DNA from: Ignavibacteriales bacterium | GTDB taxonomy: Bacteria > Bacteroidota > Ignavibacteria > Ignavibacteriales > Melioribacteraceae | Direction: 5' to 3' | DNA: 64,000 nucleotides | Assembly: GCA_027348115.1 (NCBI GenBank) | Contig: DAIEQA010000109.1 | Location: 3,104 to 67,103, forward strand | The notes under the pieces: generated by a model | Seen by the model: the letters and a program-made list of their open reading frames with translations, nothing else | Told to the model about the DNA's origin: nothing | The model's database searches: none | Made by a program: the position numbers and the translations under genes | Shown: piece after piece, positions 5,057 to 14,677 of the stretch | How positions within the stretch are numbered: the first letter of the stretch is position 1 | Layout: the number at the start of each line of letters is the position of its first letter

Positions 5057-5905
5057 TTATTCAAGATATTTTGCGAACCAATCTTTTCTCATCCGGTCAA
5101 CTTCTTTACGGTGCGATTTTAAGAAGTGATCCCCGCCTTCAAGCAAAACCAATTTATGTTCGCGGTTTAATTTCGTTAATTTAACCGAAAGATTTTGCGA
5201 ATCGGAAACCGGGACCCTATCATCGTTTGTGCCGTGAAGAAGTAATATCGGCGTGGCGCGGCAAAGTTTTTCCGGGAAGTTTATAATTGAGCGCGAATAG
5301 CACATTGATTTTATTTGTTCATTTGAATGAAAGAGATTTGTTTTTTTAAGAACATCCCTAAACTCGCTTGTTTTTTCCGCGCAGTGAAGATCGGCAATTC
5401 CTCCGCTTACAATTGCGGCTTTAAATATATTTATTTTGGTTAGTGCAAGGTAAGTCATCATTCCGCCGCGGCTCCATCCTTCAATTCCCCAAATATTATT
5501 ATCGGCAAACTCAAATTCTTCGGCAAGAGGAATCAAATTAAGTATATCGTTTACGTCTTCGCCGCCGAATTCGTCCTTGCCTTGGCTTCCGGCGTTTCCT
5601 CGGTACTGCGAAGCTAACACAACATAGCCCCAACTCGCTATTTGTCCTAATATGCCGCGCGCGTTGAATTCATCAATCGATCCGTTTTCGCCGTAGCCGC
5701 CTCTATTCCATAACACACACGGATATTTTTTAGTCCGGTCGATGGGATAAGACACATAACCGTTTATTTTAAGTTCGTCCGAGAGATAAGTAATTTTTTC
5801 GGTTATTGTATTTTCAACAACGGCAGGGCCCCATCCGCTCGAGATCATTTTAAGATGCATGGAACTTAAACTTATTTCTTTTCGTAAAACGATAGGCGCT
5901 TTCAT
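5057..5905 (-). CDS. Alpha/beta hydrolase, S9 prolyl-oligopeptidase / dienelactone-hydrolase family
   Basis: Nucleophile elbow GWSRGG, later GTNDDRV (Asp) and GGDHF (His). Its stop codon abuts the stop of the convergent gene with zero spacer. Confidence 0.75.
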   Translation of the reverse strand: MKAPIVLRKEISLSSMHLKMISSGWGPAVVENTITEKITYLSDELKINGYVSYPIDRTKKYPCVLWNRGGYGENGSIDEFNARGILGQIASWGYVVLASQYRGNAGSQGKDEFGGEDVNDILNLIPLAEEFEFADNNIWGIEGWSRGGMMTYLALTKINIFKAAIVSGGIADLHCAEKTSEFRDVLKKTNLFHSNEQIKSMCYSRSIINFPEKLCRATPILLLHGTNDDRVPVSDSQNLSVKLTKLNREHKLVLLEGGDHFLKSHRKEVDRMRKDWFAKYLE

Positions 5906-7573: not shown

Positions 7574-9823
7574 TTATTTGAGCAGAAGAAATTTCTTTGT
7601 CTGGCTGAATGATCCGCTTTGCAATCTGTAAAAGTAAACACCGCTAGTTAATTTGCTTCCGTCAAATGTAACCTGGTAATTACCGGGGGATTTTTGTTCG
7701 TTGACGAGAGTTGCGATTTCTCGACCGAGTACGTCGTAAACTTTAAGTGTAACCGACCTCACCCTTTGTCCCTCTCCTTGCGAAGGAGAGGGAATTGAAA
7801 ATTGTATTGTTGTTGTTGGGTTGAATGGGTTGGGGTAGTTTTGAGATAAATCTATGTGATTTGTTAAAGATGAATTACTTCCATTTTTAACCGAAGTAAT
7901 TAAATCATTCTTTAAAATGGTAAATCCGTAAGAACCTTGAGATAGAAAAATTAAATTACCTTCAACGGTCAAATTAATAGCAATAGCTTTTCCCAAAGTG
8001 TAGCAACCCGTTTCAAAAGCATTAACCGGATTAGTAATATCAAAGACTACTAAACCTCGTGTATCATCCAAAACATACAAATAATTACCATCCCGTAAAA
8101 TTTTTCGGACATAAGTTGAATGATTGTTAAAAGTAGAAATATTCGAGTAATCATTCTTGTTCAGCATACTAATGCCGCTCTTGCCCTGTGCAATAAAAAT
8201 AACCGAATCTTTTACGGTAATGTCCTCCACCGAACCAATTTGATTAACATTTTTTATTAACTCTGGCAAATTGGGATTAGTAATATCATATACATAAAAT
8301 CCCATTGTATCAGCTGCAAGAAAACATAATGAATCGTCAACAAGAATGCCGACACCCGATTTTTCAAAAGAATCATTATAAATTAATTTAGGATTAGTTG
8401 AATCCGAAATATCACATATCCAAAGTCCGTGAAATCTTGCCGCGATATAGGCATATTTGTCTTTCACTATAACTTTATTCCCCTCTACTTCATGAAACAA
8501 ACCTAATTCAATAAAATTATTTGCATCTGAAATATCAACTATTTGCAGACCGCATCCAGAACTCGGTGTGCTTGTAAGATATGCCAGATTATTTTTTATA
8601 AAAACAGATGTACTGTAAACATTGGGATAAGTTTGTACAAATTGTTTAGTGGTTCTTACGATATTATTTGGGTCGCTGTAATCAAAGCAATTTAGTCTGC
8701 TGCTTCCACATGAGGCATAAATTGTATTATTTGAAATAGAAATATCATTTATCGTATCCAATGTTTTGTAGGATGTTATTCCCTCCGGGTTATTCATATT
8801 TTTTAACGAATAAACAGATAATCCGTTACCGCCTCTAGAGAGGAATAAGTAATCTTTATACATGGCAACCGAATAACCATCGCTAGCGTAGATGTTAATC
8901 GTATTATACACATTTCCATCAATTGGATTTTTAGGAGTTGATGGATTCGAAATATCGTAAATCAACACGCCATCAGGGCCGTCATTGATATAGGAAAGAA
9001 CTAAAAGGGTATCTTTAATATATATATCTCTTGCTCTTGAGACCCAATCACCGGGGATATAAGCAGAAAAAGTTATTTTAGCAGATTTAGGTTCCGAGAT
9101 GTCAAGTACAAATAATTTACTGAGCCTCCAACTGAAAAAGCTATCATTATTTATGGTGCCAATATATGCATAGTTGTTCTTAATTTTGATAGTAACAGGA
9201 ACCTGATGATTTTCTAAAAAATTTGTTGACAACAAAGTTGGATTACTTTTTTGCTTCACATTTACTACCAATATGCCCCCGTTATCTCCGCATAAATAAG
9301 CAAGTGAATCGGAAACAAACAAATCGTTGAAATTAATAGGATTATCTAAATTAAAATTGGAAAGAGTTATTGGATAATTCAAATTTGATATGTCTATAAT
9401 ACTAAGACCGGCATCATCAGATATCACATAAGCTGTATTCTGCTGAATAAAAACTGCTTGTGTATTTCCATTTGACGGAATAAAGCTCTTTTGGAAAGGA
9501 GAAGTTGTATTGGAAAAATCTATTATGTACAATCCGCCAGTAGTTGCCGCGAATAACGTATTATCAGCCTGTACCAAATGGTTAATTAAGTAATCTCCGT
9601 GAAAGGTTGAAATTTTGTTAAGTGTATTATTACTAAAAAGAGTTATGTCTATGCTTGTTCCATTCCCAATAAAAATGATTGAATCTTTTGTCGCCACAGC
9701 ATAACTAGGTCCTTCTGAGTACTTACCGATGAACGACAAATTCTTTGAATCTTGTGCTGTTGCGGGTCTTATTAATATGAAAGTGATGAATAAGAATATT
9801 AATAACATTATGAATCGTTTCAT
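7574..9823 (-). CDS. LVIVD-repeat beta-propeller protein with T9SS C-terminal sorting domain
   Basis: Signal peptide and repeated GLSIIDISN / VLIYDISN / GLQIVDISD / GLVVFDITN (LVIVD repeat). The C-terminus [17 protein letters not shown] ... VYFYRL ... KKFLLLK is a Por_Secre_tail. Confidence 0.85.
7770..7792. repeat. Perfect palindrome CCCTCTCCTT-GCG-AAGGAGAGGG inside the T9SS sorting-domain coding sequence
   Basis: 10-bp stem with a 3-nt loop, read in frame as part of PSPSQGEGQ. An identical copy lies at 10033-10055. Confidence 0.85.
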
Positions 9824-9836
9824 ATAATTGCTCCCA

Positions 9837-11252
9837 TTATTTCATCAGTACAAATTTCTTTGTTTGGCTGAATGAACCTGCTTCCAATCTATAAAAGTAA
9901 ACTCCACTTGGTAGCTCGCTTCCATCGAAAGTTACCTGGTAATTGCCGGGAGATTTTTGTTCGTTGACGAGTGTGGAAATTTCTTGACCGAGTACGTCGT
10001 AAACTTTAAGTGTAACCAACCTCACCCTTTGTCCCTCTCCTTGCGAAGGAGAGGGAATTGAAAATTGTATTGTTGTTGTTGGGTTAAACGGGTTGGGGAA
10101 GTTTTGTTCTAAAATAAACTGATTTGGAATACTGGTCGATTGGTTGACGCCAGTTATTTTATCAACTACATGGATATAGACATAAGGTGAATCAACAAGC
10201 ATATTGAAATATTGATTGCGAGGCGGATAATTTATTTTATTGATGATTTGATTCTGCTGAAAGGAATAAATGTTAATAGAATCGTTCTCTGTAAATGTTA
10301 AGAAATTTTCTTGTGTATCTGTACCTAGGCTCGAGCCTAACGAAAGAATAATTTCTTTTTGTCCAAATGATAGATTATTTGAATTGAAATGCCGTCTTGC
10401 AAGATTCTGATCATCTATAAAATAAAGATAACCATTCTTAACAGTCCAAAACGATTGCCACGAATTAAATGAAAGAACATCGACCTTTACAAATGAAGAA
10501 TCTTTTAGCTTTTCAATAAATAGCGAGGGCGACCATTCAAAGCTTATAATTGACAATGAATCATTGAGAGAATAACATTTTTCCGGTGCGGCAAAGAAAG
10601 GTGATTCTACATCGGGAAAGGTTACTTTATTTTTTACGACTAGATTATTTTGCGAATCAAAATTTATGAGATAATAGGAATAACCATAATCATCCGTGGT
10701 AGTCGCAGCTAAGAGGTAATCATTGTGAATTCGACCTACAATATGTATTGGGGTTAACGAGGTTGAACCGTTATTTAAAGAGTATAGGGAATCAGAAGAT
10801 AAATAATATCCCGCATGACTTATGCAGTTGGTTAGTATTAAGCCTTTTTCTACGTTAAGAATATTAGCTGCTCCGGATAAGTAAGTTCCGGTTCCACATT
10901 CAGGGTAACGTCCGCCAAAAAGAGAAAATTCGTTGGAGGTGGAAGAATTAATTAATCTCATTTGAAAAGAAGAGGGTGGACCAATGGAGGTATTATATTC
11001 GTCGGTTGTAATCCTCTTAATAAAATACCGTGTTTTATTAAATGTAAAAATATTCTCGAATGCTTCCTGAGTCTTTCCCGAAGATGTGGTAATCGATTCC
11101 CAGTGTTCAACCCTGTCGTTAGTATCTACCGTACTCTGATAGAAATTAATTCTTAATAATGAGCCTTCAGTTACTGTCTGCTGGGAATAAATTGCATTAT
11201 AAAAAAGAATTATTAGAATGTTACAGTAAAAAAATATTTTGCTTTTAACCAT
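9837..11252 (-). CDS. Secreted hypothetical protein with T9SS C-terminal sorting domain
   Basis: ATG 11252 gives a good signal peptide ([25 protein letters not shown]). The C-terminal ~90 aa are nearly identical to the neighbouring gene's Por_Secre_tail. Confidence 0.75.
10033..10055. repeat. Second copy of the CCCTCTCCTT-GCG-AAGGAGAGGG palindrome inside a coding sequence
   Basis: Identical to 7770-7792. It lies within a 100-nt block (9986-10085 vs 7723-7822) that has a single mismatch. Confidence 0.85.
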
Positions 11253-11349
11253 TGTACCCCCGGGTACATTTTTAATTTCACAAACAAATAACAAAAATTT
11301 ACTGTAAAGGGCAATGAATAAAATTGTATTAATATTGCAGAAAATAGAA

Positions 11350-11373
11350 AGAGACGAGGCATGCCTCGTCTCT
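11350..11373 (-). terminator. Terminator hairpin downstream of aconitase
   Basis: 24-nt perfect palindrome AGAGACGAGGCATGCCTCGTCTCT, 10 nt past the TAA at 11384-11386, followed on the minus strand by a T-rich run. Confidence 0.7.
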
Positions 11374-11383
11374 ACAAGTGCGC

Positions 11384-13927
11384 TTATTTTTTCTTTTTAA
11401 CAACCTTTTTTGCTGCAACTTTCTTTGTCTTAGCTTTTGCTACTTTTATAGCTACTGCTTTTTTAACCACTTTCTTTACTACAGCCTTTTTAGCTTTCGC
11501 CGGTTTTTTAACAGCTGCTTTCTTTACAGCATTAACAGCTTTTTTAGCGGAAGCTTTTTTAACAACTTTCTTAGCTGCAGTTTTCTTTGCCGGTTTTGCT
11601 TTAACAACTTTTTTCTTAGCAACGGGTTTTATAGCAGCTTTCTTTACAACTTTTTTAACCGGTGCGGCTTTTTGGCTTTGAGCAATCAAATTTAATGCGC
11701 CGCCGGCTTTGAACCATTCAATCTGTCCTGCATTGAAAGAATGATTCAGCCAAATTTCTTCTGTGCTGCCGTCTTTGTGTTTAATTATTAACTGCAATTG
11801 TTTTTCCGGTGCGAAATCATTTAATCCTACAAGACTAAGTGTGTCGTCTTCCTGGATTTTATCGTAATCACTTGGATCGGAGAAAGTTAAAGGAAGCATA
11901 CCTTGTTTCTTTAGATTGGTTTCGTGAATACGCGCGAAACTCTTTGTGATAATTGCTTTGCCGCCGAGAAAGCGCGGTTCCATTGCTGCATGTTCGCGCG
12001 ACGAACCTTCTCCGTAGTTTTCATCTCCTACAACCACCCAGCCGATTGCCTGGGCTTTGTATTCGCGTGCAACTTCGTGAACCGGTTGATAATATTCGGT
12101 AAACTGATTTTTTGCTTGGCCGGGTTTTCCGGTAAATGCGTTGATGGCGCCAAGAAACATATTCTTGGAAATATTATCGAGATGTCCGCGGAATTTAAGC
12201 CATGAACCCGCCGGCGAGATATGATCTGTAGTGCATTTGCCTTTTGCTTTAAGTAGCAGCGGCATATCAGTAAAATCTTTTCCGTTCCATGGCTTGAACT
12301 GTTCCATAAATTCGAGACGTTCGCTTTGCGCAGGCATTTTAATTTCAGTTTTGAATCCGTCTTTTGAAGGAGCGAGAAAACCTTTTGTGTCCTTCATGAA
12401 ACCTTGAGCGGGTAATTCATCTCCGTACGGAGGATCAAGCTTTACCTGTTCGCCGTTTTCGTTTGTTAAGTAGTCTGTTTCGGGATTGAACGAAAGACTA
12501 CCCGCGATTGCGAGAGCAGTTACTAATTCTGGACTGGCGACAAACGAAAGCGTTTCCGGATTGTTATCGTTTCTCTTTGCAAAATTTCTGTTGAATGAAT
12601 TTACAATAGTGTTTCTTTCACCGATTGATATATCCATTCTTTTCCACATACCGATGCAAGGACCGCAAGCGTTGGCAAGGACTTGTCCGCCAAATTCAGT
12701 GAGGGTTTGCAATTGTCCGTCGCGTTCAATTGTTGCGCGGACTTGTTCTGAACCCGGAGTAATTTTGAATTCGGATTTTGCTTTTAATCCTTTAGCCAAT
12801 GCTTGACGAGCGATGTTTGCAGAGCGGTCGATATCTTCGTAGCTCGAATTTGTGCAGCTTCCGATTAAAGCAACGCTGATTTTATCCGGATAGTTATTTG
12901 CGACAACATCTTCTTTCATTCTCGAAATCGGGTGAGCGAGATCCGGAGTAAACGGACCATTAAGATATGGCTCAAGTTCATTTAAATCGATTTCAATTAC
13001 CTGGTCATAATATTTTGATGGATCGGCATAAACTTCATGATCGGCTTTTAAGACATCCGCAAGCTGAGTCGCGAGTTTAGCAACGTCGGCGCGATCAGTC
13101 TTTGTTAAGTAAGCAGCCATCTTTTCATCAAAAGGAAATATAGAACATGTTGCGCCAACTTCAGCACCCATGTTGCAAATAGTTGCTTTGCCGGTACCGG
13201 AAATTGAATCGGCGCCTTCGCCGAAATATTCTACAATAGCACCGGTTCCTCCTTTAACGGTAAGAAGTCCGGCAACTTTAAGAATAACATCTTTTGGAGA
13301 GGTCCAGCCGGATAATTTACCGGTAAGATGAACGCCGATAAGTTTTGGCCATTTTAATTCCCAGGGCATTCCGGCCATAACGTCAACTACATCCGCACCA
13401 CCGACTCCGATTGCGATCATTCCAAGTCCGCCTGCATTTGGAGTATGAGAATCAGAACCGATCATCATCCCGCCGGGGAAGGCGTAATTTTCCAGAATTA
13501 CCTGGTGAATAATTCCGGCGCCGGGTTTCCAGAATCCGACTCCGTATTTTTGACAGATACTTTCGAGGAACTCATAAACTTCTCTGTTTTCATCGATAGC
13601 TTTTTCGAGGTCTTCCTTCGATCCGTTTTGCGCCACGATTAAGTGATCGGCATGAGCAGTGGCAGGTACAGCGGCACTTTTTCTGCCGGCATGCATAAAT
13701 TGCAGCATAGCCATTTGAGCGGTCGCGTCTTGCATTGCAACTCGGTCCGGCGCGAATTCGGCAAAAGCTTTGCCTCTATCTAATTCTCCTTTTGCAGGTT
13801 CCCAAAGATGTGAGTATAGAATTTTTTCGGCGTAAGTTAATGGTCTTCCGACAACTTTACGTGCATGCTCAACTTTATCTCTAAAACCCGCATAAACTTT
13901 TTGAATCATATCAAAGTTAGCAGTCAT
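11384..13927 (-). CDS. acn: Aconitate hydratase (mitochondrial-type, ~750-aa core) with a ~95-aa Lys/Ala/Val-rich histone-H1-like C-terminal tail
   Basis: Full-length aconitase motifs are present ([53 protein letters not shown]). The core ends near ...[11 protein letters not shown] and continues in frame as [21 protein letters not shown]...KKVVKKKK. Confidence 0.93.
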
Positions 13928-14106: not shown

Positions 14107-14167
14107 AACATTCAATTTGAAATATATTTTTGAATGGAATACATTTACCTAAACATTGCACAACGTT

Positions 14168-14677
14168 ATGCTAGAACGTAAAAGAACACGTCTCAAGGAG
14201 TTTGATTATTCTTCTTCCAACTACTATTTTATTACAATATGTACGCAGAATAAAATATCATTGTTTGGTAATGTAAACAATGAGACCCTCTTGCTGAATG
14301 GAATAGGTGAAATTGTTAAAAAATGCTGGTTGGAGATAAAAGAACATTTTACCAATATCGATTTGGATGAATTCGTAATAATGCCTAATCATTTCCATGG
14401 AATAATAATTATTGATGGCATTGTAGGGTTGAGGTCTCCTCAACCCGATGCAATCACAAAACAGTTTTCGTTAAGCCAAATCGTGGCATATTTCAAGTAT
14501 CAATCTACTAGAAAAGTAAATGAACAACGCCCTGCAGCAAATGGCAAAGTTTGGCAAAGATCATTTTACGATCGGATCATTAGGAATGAAAAAGAATTAT
14601 ATATGATTAGGAATTATATAAGATATAATGCATCGAAATGGAATGATGTTTTAGGCGAAGAGAATCTTGAGTTATAA
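14168..14677 (+). CDS. REP-associated tyrosine transposase (RAYT, IS200/IS605-like Y1 HUH enzyme)
   Basis: YFITICTQNK, HUH motif MPNHFHGIII, and a C-terminal YIRYNASKW tyrosine region. Flanked by REP hairpins. ATG 14168 lies inside ORF 14156..14677. Confidence 0.85.
   Translation: MLERKRTRLKEFDYSSSNYYFITICTQNKISLFGNVNNETLLLNGIGEIVKKCWLEIKEHFTNIDLDEFVIMPNHFHGIIIIDGIVGLRSPQPDAITKQFSLSQIVAYFKYQSTRKVNEQRPAANGKVWQRSFYDRIIRNEKELYMIRNYIRYNASKWNDVLGEENLEL
14423..14446. repeat. REP-like hairpin embedded in the RAYT coding sequence
   Basis: GTAGGGTTGAGG-TCT-CCTCAACCC copies the flanking REP, with paired C>T / G>A changes that keep the stem. It encodes VGLRSPQP. Confidence 0.6.

What the first reader, a model, noticed from the sequence alone, without database searches (positions are those of the whole stretch)
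11384..11690. Aconitase carries a ~95-aa histone-H1-like Lys/Ala/Val tail
The aconitase core, which has all the Fe-S ligand and substrate motifs, ends near ...[11 protein letters not shown]. The same ORF then continues as [95 protein letters not shown]. The first stop is followed after 10 nt by a perfect 24-nt palindromic terminator, so the tail is part of the transcription unit and not a read-through artefact. AKKA/PAKK repeats of this type are the nucleic-acid-binding tails of eukaryotic H1, chlamydial Hc1, mycobacterial Hlp/HupB and AlgP. Aconitases are known moonlighters: they act as IRP-like RNA binders in bacteria, and yeast mitochondrial Aco1 is a nucleoid protein needed for mtDNA maintenance. 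A covalent fusion of an aconitase to a polycationic DNA/RNA-binding tail would be a direct physical link between the TCA cycle and the nucleoid or RNA.
Basis: partly seen in the sequence, partly recalled or inferred. Interest (0 to 1): 0.7.

Follow-up and report, generated by a model that had tools for sequence, protein, structure and literature searches.

The report
Aconitase with a lysine-rich polycationic tail
A normal Krebs-cycle aconitase from an Ignavibacteria (Melioribacteraceae-like) bacterium carries a real, conserved 95-residue disordered tail of about +41 charge that most likely sticks the enzyme to DNA, RNA or polyphosphate, and tails of this kind have been added repeatedly to aconitase and to other central-metabolism enzymes in Bacteroidota.

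Summary
ORF 11384-13927 (-) encodes an 847-aa protein. Residues 1-752 are a complete mitochondrial-type aconitase. Residues 753-847 are a Lys/Ala/Val tail (42% K, no acidic residues, net +41), followed by the stop codon and, 10 nt later, a strong terminator hairpin.

It is not an artefact. About 108 of the 120 closest homologues (Melioribacteraceae, Stygiobacter, Rosettibacter) keep an in-frame K-rich tail of 50-125 aa. The tail sequence is not conserved, but its composition, charge and ...KKK end are. Lys codons in the window gene are arranged to avoid long A-runs (P=0.0002).

A core-protein tree points to at least four independent gains in Bacteroidota and several losses.

The tail matches no protein family, so "H1-like" is a compositional and periodicity resemblance (K every 4-5 residues), not homology. 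Similar tails sit on pyruvate phosphate dikinase in the same lineage. They also sit on 2-oxoglutarate:ferredoxin oxidoreductase and adenylate kinase in other Bacteroidota. The tail is therefore not aconitase-specific.

Best explanation: a non-specific electrostatic tether to cellular polyanions, chiefly nucleic acids. This is inferred, not shown. I found no published description. I rate it a new variant of a known kind, of moderate interest.

The parts
11384..13927 (-). Complete CDS: aconitate hydratase with C-terminal polycationic tail (847 aa plus TAA stop at 11384-11386)
   Evidence: ORF list and sequence. A 100% identical protein, P0001, exists in public data.
11672..13927 (-). Catalytic core, residues 1-752: mitochondrial-type aconitase with Fe-S ligands C358, C421 and C424
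   Evidence: TIGR01340 scores 1129.6 bits (cutoff 825). Pfam Aconitase and Aconitase_C both hit. End-to-end alignment to 5ACN residues 23-752 of 754. The three Cys are invariant in the 44-sequence alignment.
11387..11671 (-). Polycationic low-complexity tail, residues 753-847 (95 aa; about 42% K, 24% A, 20% V; net +41; ends KKKK)
   Evidence: Composition and charge, counted on residues 750-847. AF2 pLDDT about 25 with no secondary structure over residues 754-847, though the model is poor overall. Lysine periodicity of 4-5 residues, z>20 pooled over 117 tails, with no signal at 3.6. No Pfam hit and only a chance-level PDB hit. No tandem repeat. Longest A-run is 6, against 9.6 expected when AAA and AAG are permuted among Lys positions, P=0.0002.
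11350..11373 (-). Intrinsic terminator hairpin (10-bp perfect stem, 4-nt loop) followed by a U-rich run, starting 10 nt after the stop codon
   Evidence: Terminator scan. RNA fold of 11335-11395: -19.8 kcal/mol, z=-4.05, 0 of 200 shuffles fold as well. The sub-threshold Rfam hit over it (RefA9, 26 bits against a gathering score of 49, E=0.47) is chance.

Best explanation
The gene encodes a catalytically ordinary mitochondrial-type aconitase. Its C-terminus has been extended by an intrinsically disordered polycation of about 95 residues. Lys singlets, doublets and triplets are spaced every 4-5 residues by small Ala, Val, Ser, Thr or Pro residues, giving a net charge near +40.

The most likely mechanism is non-sequence-specific electrostatic tethering. 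The tail binds the phosphate backbones of the cell's abundant polyanions, chiefly chromosomal DNA and RNA or ribosomes, and possibly polyphosphate. This keeps or concentrates the enzyme on that scaffold while the globular core continues to interconvert citrate and isocitrate. In this it works like the H1-like tails of PhaF and AlgP, which tether granules to the nucleoid. It also resembles the Lys-rich C-terminal domain of actinobacterial topoisomerase I and Ku.

Shown here: the architecture, translation of the tail under selection, conservation of charge, length and spacing but not sequence, repeated independent gain on aconitase, and the presence of similar tails on other central-metabolism enzymes of Bacteroidota.

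Inferred: that the tail binds nucleic acid or polyphosphate in vivo, and that localisation or clustering is the selected benefit.
For: 1. The tail lies wholly outside the canonical fold. The core aligns to 5ACN up to residue 752 of 754.
2. About 108 of 120 homologues at 77-88% core identity carry in-frame tails of 50-125 aa. Pooled composition is K 44%, V 15%, A 11%, S+T 11%, D+E 1.3%, mean net charge about +35, and nearly all end in KKK, RKK or KRK. The tail sequences themselves are not alignable.
3. Selection on the coding frame. AAG makes up 43% of Lys codons in tails against 30% in cores (Fisher p=4e-4). In the window gene the AAG codons are placed so that the longest A-run is 6 against 9.6 expected (P=0.0002). 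L002 gives P=0.02 and L014 gives P=0.018. A-runs are 8 or shorter in all 8 genes examined.
4. Lysine positions show strong 4.0- and 5.1-residue periodicity (z about 21) and none at 3.6. This is the spacing of the KPAA tetrapeptide repeats of AlgP (PMC9239181) and of lysine-rich pentapeptide repeats such as mycobacterial PAKKA (PMC3553676) and chlamydial Hc2 (PMC2848022). It is not the spacing of an amphipathic membrane helix.
5. On a neighbour-joining tree of cores, the tailed lineages are separated by tail-less ones. They are the Melioribacteraceae-like clade, L014/L016, L017 (an R/K/P/A-rich version in a 63-68% GC gene), and Cytophagales L034/L075. That implies at least 4 gains.
6. About 1.48 Mb around these genes (on the order of a thousand neighbouring genes, my estimate) holds no other such tail. 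With my assumption of 1300 neighbouring genes, 4 of 81 against 0 of 1300 gives p about 1e-5.
7. Literature: K-rich low-complexity regions in prokaryotes are associated with DNA- and RNA-binding proteins, while metabolic proteins are depleted of low-complexity regions (PMC6821194). The AlgP and PhaF tails bind DNA and position granules (PMC9239181). Yeast mitochondrial-type Aco1 binds and protects mtDNA independently of catalysis (PMC7463775).
Against: - There is no direct binding or localisation evidence.
- The tail matches no DNA- or RNA-binding family.
- It is V-rich and P-poor compared with H1 and AlgP, and it is not a repeat array.
- Tail-less orthologues are nested within the tailed clade: P0040/L204, P0044/L001, P0051, P0076, P0037, P0041 and P0056. 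The tail is therefore dispensable in some lineages.
- Similar tails occur on PPDK in the same lineage, and on KorA, Adk and SucD elsewhere. The benefit may be a generic physicochemical one rather than a specific link between the TCA cycle and the nucleoid.
- Polyphosphate or anionic lipids could be the real partner.
- The tree is only a distance tree, so the counts of gains and losses are approximate.
Confidence: 0.5

Rival explanations
1. The tail tethers the enzyme to polyphosphate granules rather than to nucleic acid. It would bind polyP, or bridge polyP and the nucleoid, as AlgP does, placing aconitase and other tailed enzymes on polyP bodies.
For: AlgP, which has an H1-like K/P/A C-terminal domain, was found enriched in polyP granule preparations, and its C-terminal domain is required for granule spacing (PMC9239181). 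The charge, length and 4-residue spacing of the tail are similar. PPDK, a pyrophosphate-handling enzyme, carries a similar tail in the same lineage.
Against: No polyP genes or granules were examined here. Electrostatics cannot distinguish polyP from DNA or RNA, and nucleic acids are normally far more abundant in the cell. AlgP itself also binds DNA.
Confidence: 0.15
2. The tail is a generic physicochemical appendage with no specific partner. It could act as an entropic bristle or solubility aid, offset the acidic core's charge (-18 in this protein), shield the C-terminus from proteases, or be a nearly neutral expansion tolerated in these lineages.
For: The sequence evolves fast and only composition is kept. 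The tail has been lost or truncated several times without loss of the gene. Similar tails are scattered over unrelated proteins in metagenomes, including HU, bL21, RpoD, GyrA, Adk, KorA, PPDK, Bcp and a lysophospholipase.
Against: Length (50-125 aa), charge and the terminal KKK are retained across more than 100 orthologues. Gain was convergent in at least 4 lineages on this one enzyme, while none of the neighbouring genes in 1.48 Mb has such a tail. Codon placement avoids frameshift-prone A-runs. Core charge does not track tail presence: mean -9.1 for tailed cores against -12.1 for tail-less ones. A tail of +41 cannot avoid binding polyanions in a cell.
Confidence: 0.2
3. The polybasic tail anchors the enzyme to the anionic inner face of the cytoplasmic membrane, placing aconitase near the respiratory chain.
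For: The tail is strongly cationic and holds 15-20% Val plus Ile. The C-terminal region of TubY binds both membranes and DNA (title of PMC7762940, seen only as a listing).
Against: There is no 3.6-residue amphipathic periodicity (z=-0.1 at 100 degrees). Aromatic residues are almost absent (0.4%). No hydrophobic anchor segment is present.
Confidence: 0.08
4. The tail is an artefact: a frameshift, an assembly error, or fortuitous read-through into an A-rich 3' region.
For: One relative (P0098, loci L202/L203) does carry a frameshift inside the tail-coding region, so this sequence is indel-prone. The antisense frames of the tail are also open, at 11361-11681 and 11378-11695 on the plus strand.
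Against: An identical protein is found in independent public data (P0001). More than 100 orthologues from many assemblies and sequencing sources keep the frame despite length differences. Cultured-isolate genomes (Stygiobacter electus P0034, Rosettibacter firmus P0062) have the tail. The terminator sits directly after the tail's stop codon. The open antisense frames are simply the Phe/Leu-rich mirror image of Lys codons.
Confidence: 0.02

Closest known systems
Pseudomonas AlgP and PhaF (H1-like KPAA-repeat C-terminal domains)
   Same: Two-part design: a functional N-terminal module plus a long, disordered Lys/Ala-rich C-terminal polycation with lysines about every 4 residues. The tail binds DNA and tethers or positions a cellular body (polyP or PHA granules) relative to the nucleoid (PMC9239181).
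   Different: AlgP and PhaF tails are true tandem KPAA repeats and are proline-rich. The aconitase tail is non-repetitive at the DNA level, V-rich and P-poor, and is fused to a soluble TCA-cycle enzyme rather than to a granule-binding domain. No sequence homology is detectable.
Eukaryotic linker histone H1 C-terminal domain; chlamydial Hc1/Hc2; mycobacterial Hlp/HupB tails
   Same: Roughly 100-residue, roughly +40, about 40% Lys plus Ala low-complexity disordered tails with few acidic residues. Hc2 and Hlp have penta- or tetrapeptide lysine spacing (PMC2848022, PMC3553676).
   Different: Those tails are attached to DNA-binding globular domains (winged helix, HU) or form the whole protein. S/TPKK motifs and high Pro content are absent here. 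No Pfam family hits the tail, even at E up to 10.
Actinobacterial topoisomerase I and Mycobacterium smegmatis Ku (Lys-repeat / PAKKA C-terminal tails)
   Same: An enzyme or repair protein whose lineage-specific Lys-rich low-complexity C-terminal tail adds non-specific polyanion affinity. These tails are present in some lineages and absent from close homologues (PMC7398561, PMC3553676).
   Different: Their substrate is DNA, so the tail serves catalysis or processivity. Aconitase has no nucleic-acid substrate.
Yeast mitochondrial aconitase Aco1 (mitochondrial-nucleoid component)
   Same: Same enzyme subfamily: the core here is a TIGR01340 mitochondrial-type aconitase. Aco1 binds mtDNA and stabilises it independently of catalysis (PMC7463775).
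   Different: PMC7463775 places Aco1's DNA-binding activity in 'a distinct region' of the protein, and to my knowledge Aco1 has no polycationic tail. Aco1 also acts in an organelle alongside Abf2.
Apo-aconitase RNA binding (IRP1, E. coli AcnA/AcnB, B. subtilis CitB) and aconitase in the Caulobacter RNA degradosome
   Same: Precedents for aconitase being physically linked to RNA metabolism (PMC4150767, PMC3045602).
   Different: Those are the AcnA/IRP and AcnB subfamilies. Binding is sequence- or structure-specific through the opened active-site cleft after Fe-S loss, or through an RNase E microdomain, not through a non-specific tail.

Membership tests
Mitochondrial-type aconitate hydratase (TIGR01340 / Pfam Aconitase + Aconitase_C) | Full-length match above the curated cutoff | tested here: met
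   TIGR01340 scores 1129.6 bits against a cutoff of 825.35, model 1-745 on residues 12-748. PF00330 E=1.1e-147 and PF00694 E=5.8e-43.
Mitochondrial-type aconitate hydratase (TIGR01340 / Pfam Aconitase + Aconitase_C) | Three Cys ligands of the [4Fe-4S] cluster (pig C358, C421, C424) and end-to-end collinearity with a solved mitochondrial aconitase | tested here: met
   IGSCTNSS and NACGPCIG are present. C358, C421 and C424 are invariant in 44 sequences. The alignment covers query 17-752 to 5ACN 23-752 of 754 at 1048 bits.
Mitochondrial-type aconitate hydratase (TIGR01340 / Pfam Aconitase + Aconitase_C) | Aconitase catalytic activity | not testable with these tools
   Inferred from sequence conservation only.
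Linker histone H1/H5 (Pfam Linker_histone) or chlamydial Hc1 family | Sequence match to the family profile (winged-helix globular domain or Hc1 profile) | tested here: not met
   No Pfam family hits the tail alone even at E up to 10. Only the two aconitase domains hit the full protein. The tail-only phmmer search of 5.8 billion proteins found nothing.
AlgP/PhaF-type KPAA repeat domain | Tandem array of KPAA-like tetrapeptide repeats | tested here: not met
   Tandem Repeats Finder reports no array at minimum score 30. Pro is only 4%. Only a statistical 4-5-residue lysine spacing is present.
H1-like lysine-rich low-complexity tails (a compositional and functional class, not a homologous family) | A terminal segment of 50 or more residues with at least about 35-40% Lys, rich in Ala or other small residues, almost no acidic or aromatic residues, and regularly spaced lysines | tested here: met
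   K 42%, A 24.5%, V 20%, D+E 0, net +41. Periodicity z about 21 at 4.0 and 5.1 residues pooled, and z=5.2 at 4.5 residues for the query alone.
H1-like lysine-rich low-complexity tails (a compositional and functional class, not a homologous family) | Intrinsic disorder | tested here: inconclusive
   AF2 gives pLDDT 23-28 and no secondary structure over residues 754-847. However, the whole model is poor (mean pLDDT 53, shallow alignment), so this is only weak support.
H1-like lysine-rich low-complexity tails (a compositional and functional class, not a homologous family) | Non-specific binding to DNA, RNA or polyP | not testable with these tools
   Needs EMSA or anisotropy with full-length protein against a construct lacking residues 753-847.

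The most novel reading that the evidence does not exclude
Polycationic H1-like tails on central-carbon and energy enzymes are a recurrent, selected feature of Bacteroidota. Examples are aconitase and PPDK in Melioribacteraceae/Stygiobacter, aconitase in Cytophagales and two other lineages, and KorA and adenylate kinase in Bacteroidia-like genomes. If so, they would mark an unrecognised way of organising metabolism: electrostatic tethering or co-condensation of abundant metabolic enzymes on the nucleoid, RNA or polyphosphate. This would be a scaffold-based 'metabolon', or conversely metabolic enzymes doubling as nucleoid-coating proteins, as yeast Aco1 does in mitochondria.
Probability: 0.2. 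Interest if true: 0.8.

Novelty: new variant of a known kind. Interest (0 to 1): 0.55.

Why it matters
Lys-rich H1-like tails are known on bacterial proteins that already work on DNA or on granules, such as HU/Hlp, TopA, Ku, AlgP and PhaF. Surveys report that metabolic enzymes are depleted of low-complexity regions (PMC6821194).

Here a TCA-cycle enzyme carries such a tail. The tail is retained across a whole clade. It arose at least four times on the same enzyme, and it has counterparts on PPDK, KorA and adenylate kinase in related phyla-level lineages.

If the tail localises these enzymes to the nucleoid, RNA or polyphosphate, it would be a simple, evolvable mechanism for spatial organisation of bacterial metabolism. 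It would also be a bacterial parallel to the mtDNA-associated role of yeast Aco1, which belongs to the same aconitase subfamily.

The hypothesis is directly testable. Cultured species (Stygiobacter electus, Rosettibacter firmus) carry tailed aconitases, and natural tail-less alleles exist as controls.

Tried and rejected
- Searching the tail alone against 5.8 billion proteins returned nothing, because HMMER's composition correction removes low-complexity matches.
- The 50%-identity representative search collapsed all mitochondrial-type aconitases into a few clusters and fragments. It said nothing about tail distribution. It did turn up an aconitase-malate dehydrogenase fusion (P0122).
- The AF2 model of the full protein from a 44-sequence, low-diversity alignment was poor (mean pLDDT 53). 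No fold search was run, and disorder of the tail is only weakly supported.
- Tandem-repeat origin is rejected: TRF found no array.
- An amphipathic-helix or membrane-anchor reading is disfavoured: there is no 3.6-residue periodicity.
- Homology to Hc1, H1 or any other family, or to a solved structure, is rejected.
- A structured RNA overlapping the region is rejected. There is only a sub-threshold Rfam hit on the terminator hairpin.
- The artefact or frameshift explanation for the window gene is rejected.
- A general lineage habit of tailing many proteins is only partly supported. No other tail occurs in the 64-kb window or in about 1.48 Mb of flanks, but PPDK in the same lineage is tailed. 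Whole genomes could not be scanned with these tools.
- Literature searches found no description of tailed aconitases. The library lacks most subscription journals.
Full report
**Observation**

- Residues 1-752 are a complete mitochondrial-type aconitase. TIGR01340 scores 1129.6 bits against a cutoff of 825, with model positions 1-745 on residues 12-748. Pfam Aconitase covers 34-476 and Aconitase_C covers 555-684.
- The core aligns end to end with pig heart aconitase 5ACN (query 17-752 to chain 23-752 of 754). The three Fe-S cysteines are invariant in a 44-sequence alignment.
- The segment K753-K847 (window 11387-11671) is therefore wholly additional to the canonical fold.
- Counted on the 98 residues after ...NLIA (750-847), the tail is 42% Lys, 24.5% Ala, 20% Val and 4% Pro, with no Asp or Glu. 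Its net charge is +41, on a core of -18.
- The TAA stop (11384-11386) is followed after 10 nt by a perfect 10-bp hairpin with a 4-nt loop and a U-rich run (11350-11373). A 61-nt stretch around the hairpin folds at -19.8 kcal/mol, z=-4.05.
- No other K-rich low-complexity stretch exists in any frame of the 64-kb window, and no other ORF has a basic terminus of this kind.
- The two plus-strand ORFs over the same bases (11361-11681 and 11378-11695) are the Phe/Leu-rich mirror image of the Lys codons, not genes.

**The tail is real and under selection**

- Homologues. A search of 5.8 billion proteins found an identical protein (P0001) and 119 close homologues with 77-88% core identity. Sources name them Melioribacteraceae, Stygiobacter, Rosettibacter, Melioribacter and Ignavibacteriales.
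  - About 108 of the 120 have in-frame K-rich tails of 50-125 residues. Seven end at the core (751-755 aa), two have a 21-residue stub, and a few are partial.
  - The tails cannot be aligned with each other, but they share composition: K 44%, V 15%, A 11%, S+T 11%, P 4%, D+E 1.3%, aromatic 0.4%. Mean net charge is about +35 and almost all end in ...KKK, RKK or KRK.
  - Genomes of cultured isolates (Stygiobacter electus P0034, Rosettibacter firmus P0062) carry the tail.
- Codon use. At the DNA level AAG makes up 43% of Lys codons in tails against 30% in cores, pooled over 8 genes (Fisher p=4e-4).
  - In the window gene the AAG codons are placed so that the longest A-run is 6. Random placement of the same codons gives a mean longest run of 9.6 and reaches 6 or fewer in only 0.02% of permutations.
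  - Two other genes show the same effect (P about 0.02) and four do not. No tail has an A-run longer than 8.
  - This is what selection against slippage in a translated poly-Lys region would produce.
- Together these results rule out read-through, frameshift or assembly artefact for the window gene.

**What kind of sequence it is**

- No Pfam family and no meaningful PDB sequence match the tail, even at E up to 10 (one chance-level PDB hit, E=4.5). A tail-only phmmer search found nothing, because of composition correction.
- Tandem Repeats Finder sees no array, so it is not a KPAA- or PAKKA-type repeat.
- Lysine positions are nevertheless strongly periodic. Pooled over 117 tails, the power spectrum peaks at 4.0 and 5.1 residues (z about 21) and is flat at 3.6 (z=-0.1). 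Lys runs of 1-3 alternate with spacers of 1-3.
  - This matches the spacing of KPAA in AlgP and PhaF and of lysine-rich pentapeptide repeats in mycobacterial tails and chlamydial Hc2.
  - It argues against an amphipathic membrane helix.
- AF2 gives pLDDT about 25 and no secondary structure for residues 754-847, but the model is poor overall (mean 53), so this supports disorder only weakly.
- "H1-like" is therefore a fair description of composition, charge, length and spacing. It is not homology, and the tail is V-rich and P-poor compared with H1 and AlgP.

**Distribution and evolution**

- I scanned one genome per GTDB species for relatives and kept the best 80 loci, covering Ignavibacteria and many Bacteroidia. 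Translating each gene to its stop showed tails in L002 and L003 (Melioribacteraceae-like), L014 and L016 (61 and 68 aa), L017 (74 aa, an Arg/Lys/Pro/Ala version in a 63-68% GC gene) and two Cytophagales (L034 and L075, 74 and 76 aa). All other genes end within 4-13 residues of the core.
- On a neighbour-joining tree of cores, the Melioribacteraceae-like clade is uniformly tailed apart from nested tail-less members. Its Ignavibacteriaceae-like sisters (L004-L011) are tail-less. L014/L016, L017 and L034/L075 each sit among tail-less relatives. The most parsimonious reading is at least four gains plus several losses. This is a distance tree, so the counts are approximate.
- Losses and truncations are visible directly.
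  - In L204 (P0040) a restriction-modification methylase gene begins 98 bp after the core's stop codon and no tail remnant is left.
  - In L001 (P0044) the stop is followed by short K-rich remnants (KTVKKV..., VVKKVIPTVKEK). This is suggestive only.
  - In L202/L203 (P0098) the 770-aa protein results from a frameshift inside the tail. The rest of the tail is intact in the +1 frame and is identical to that of P0039.
- The tail is therefore dispensable in some lineages, and its coding sequence is indel-prone.

**Is it specific to aconitase?**

- In about 1.48 Mb of sequence around these aconitase genes (on the order of a thousand neighbouring genes, my estimate) no other real ORF has such a tail. 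Taking 1300 neighbouring genes as an assumption, four independent gains in 81 species on aconitase against none among the neighbours gives p about 1e-5.
- A DNA-pattern scan of metagenomes for KKVVKKA[A/V]KK-coding sequence showed the same kind of tail on many other proteins.
  - Proteins of DNA, RNA or ribosome function: HU, bL21, RpoD (N-terminal), GyrA (N-terminal), CarD, SWIB and BlaI-like.
  - Metabolic enzymes: pyruvate phosphate dikinase (L121), the 2-oxoacid:ferredoxin oxidoreductase alpha subunit (L110), SucD (L111), adenylate kinase (L156), GMP synthase and Bcp.
- The PPDK cluster is named Melioribacteraceae, Stygiobacter and Ignavibacteria. All full-length members carry a 25-40-residue K-rich tail ending in KKK, beyond the canonical C-terminus (query 906 of 936 aligned to 1KBL 871 of 873). 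At least one other central enzyme in the same lineage is therefore tailed.
- The tailed KorA clade (98-135-residue tails) sits among homologues named Bacteroidia and Sphingobacteriaceae. Its core ends at residue 599 of 704 relative to 6N2N.
- The tailed adenylate kinase (a tail of roughly 170 residues) lies on a contig whose neighbouring genes cluster with Bacteroidota and Bacteroidia MAG proteins.
- The phenomenon is thus broader than aconitase, but it seems to favour a limited set of abundant proteins.

**Mechanism**

- Shown: a normal aconitase core carries a translated, selected, probably disordered C-terminal polycation of about +40 with regularly spaced lysines.
- Inferred: such a chain binds phosphate-backbone polyanions without sequence specificity. 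In a bacterial cytoplasm these are DNA, RNA and ribosomes, and polyphosphate. The tail then tethers or concentrates the enzyme on that scaffold.
- Functional precedents:
  - PhaF and AlgP use H1-like tails that bind DNA and position granules (PMC9239181).
  - The Lys-rich tails of actinobacterial TopA and mycobacterial Ku add DNA affinity (PMC7398561, PMC3553676).
  - Yeast Aco1, of the same aconitase subfamily, binds and protects mtDNA independently of catalysis (PMC7463775).
  - Caulobacter aconitase is recruited to the RNA degradosome (PMC3045602).
- Rival explanations, with my confidence in each:
  - polyphosphate as the real partner (0.15);
  - a generic solubility, charge or protease-shield role with no partner (0.20);
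  - membrane anchoring (0.08), disfavoured by the periodicity and the lack of aromatic residues;
  - artefact (0.02).
- I put 0.5 on the nucleic-acid or polyanion tether.

The observation and the "part of the transcription unit" argument are correct. The H1 analogy holds at the level of composition and spacing only. Nucleic-acid binding remains untested. The emphasis on aconitase's special moonlighting role is weakened by the tails on PPDK, KorA and Adk, and by natural tail-less alleles. It is strengthened by the convergent gains on aconitase. My verdict is partly supported.

**Novelty**

Five literature searches and the Melioribacter roseus genome paper (PMC3534657) give no mention of a tailed aconitase. 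A survey of prokaryotic low-complexity regions links K-rich regions to DNA- and RNA-binding proteins and notes that metabolic proteins are depleted of such regions (PMC6821194). The searchable library does not cover most subscription journals. I classify the finding as a new variant of a known kind: a known tail module on an unexpected class of partner, acquired repeatedly.

Noticed in passing
L202 and L203, about 5240-5560 (relative of the window gene; protein P0098): The apparently truncated 770-aa aconitase is a frameshift inside the tail-coding region. The remaining roughly 65 tail codons are intact in the +1 frame and match P0039's tail. The same sequence appears in an NCBI assembly and a JGI assembly. 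It may be a real recent mutation, a homopolymer sequencing error, or slippage.
   Followed up: partly
L204 5265-5363 (P0040) and L001 8256-8360 (P0044): These are genuine tail-less alleles nested in the tailed clade. In L204 a restriction-modification N6-methylase gene starts 98 bp after the core's stop. In L001 the stop is followed by short K-rich remnants (KTVKKV.., VVKKVIPTVKEK) and then about 2.4 kb with no called gene.
   Followed up: partly
L121 (P0273-P0286), L110 (P0271, P0304-P0320), L156 (P0288), L111 (P0272): K/A/V-rich C-terminal tails occur on other central-metabolism enzymes: PPDK in Melioribacteraceae/Stygiobacter (25-40 aa), the 2-oxoglutarate:ferredoxin oxidoreductase alpha subunit in a Bacteroidia-like clade (98-135 aa), adenylate kinase on a Bacteroidota contig (roughly 170 aa), and succinyl-CoA synthetase alpha (about 60 aa, taxon unknown).
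   Followed up: partly
L094 (458-aa ORF) and L154: A metagenomic protein fuses endonuclease III (Nth) to a Bcp-type peroxiredoxin through an 80-residue K-rich linker. A related Bcp carries the K-rich segment at its N-terminus.
   Followed up: no
P0122 (1099 aa, from the representative search): A mitochondrial-type aconitase is fused at its C-terminus to a full malate/lactate dehydrogenase-like domain. This is a covalent fusion of two TCA-cycle enzymes.
   Followed up: no
window 14156-14677 (+): An IS200-like Y1 transposase homologue (173 aa, only the C-terminal part of the Pfam model matched) is divergently oriented from the aconitase. It is kept in the same position in L001, L204 and L205. 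This suggests a domesticated, REP-associated-type gene rather than a mobile copy.
   Followed up: no
window 7574-9823 (-) and 9837-11294 (-): Two adjacent type IX secretion cargo proteins (one with LVIVD repeats) share a nearly identical C-terminal sorting domain of about 85 residues, including the unusual insert [11 protein letters not shown]. This suggests recent duplication or gene conversion of the sorting domain.
   Followed up: no
window 11361-11681 (+) and 11378-11695 (+): Two open frames of about 105 codons lie antisense to the tail and encode Phe/Leu/Ala-rich strings. They are mirror artefacts of Lys/Ala/Val codons and could be miscalled as genes.
   Followed up: yes
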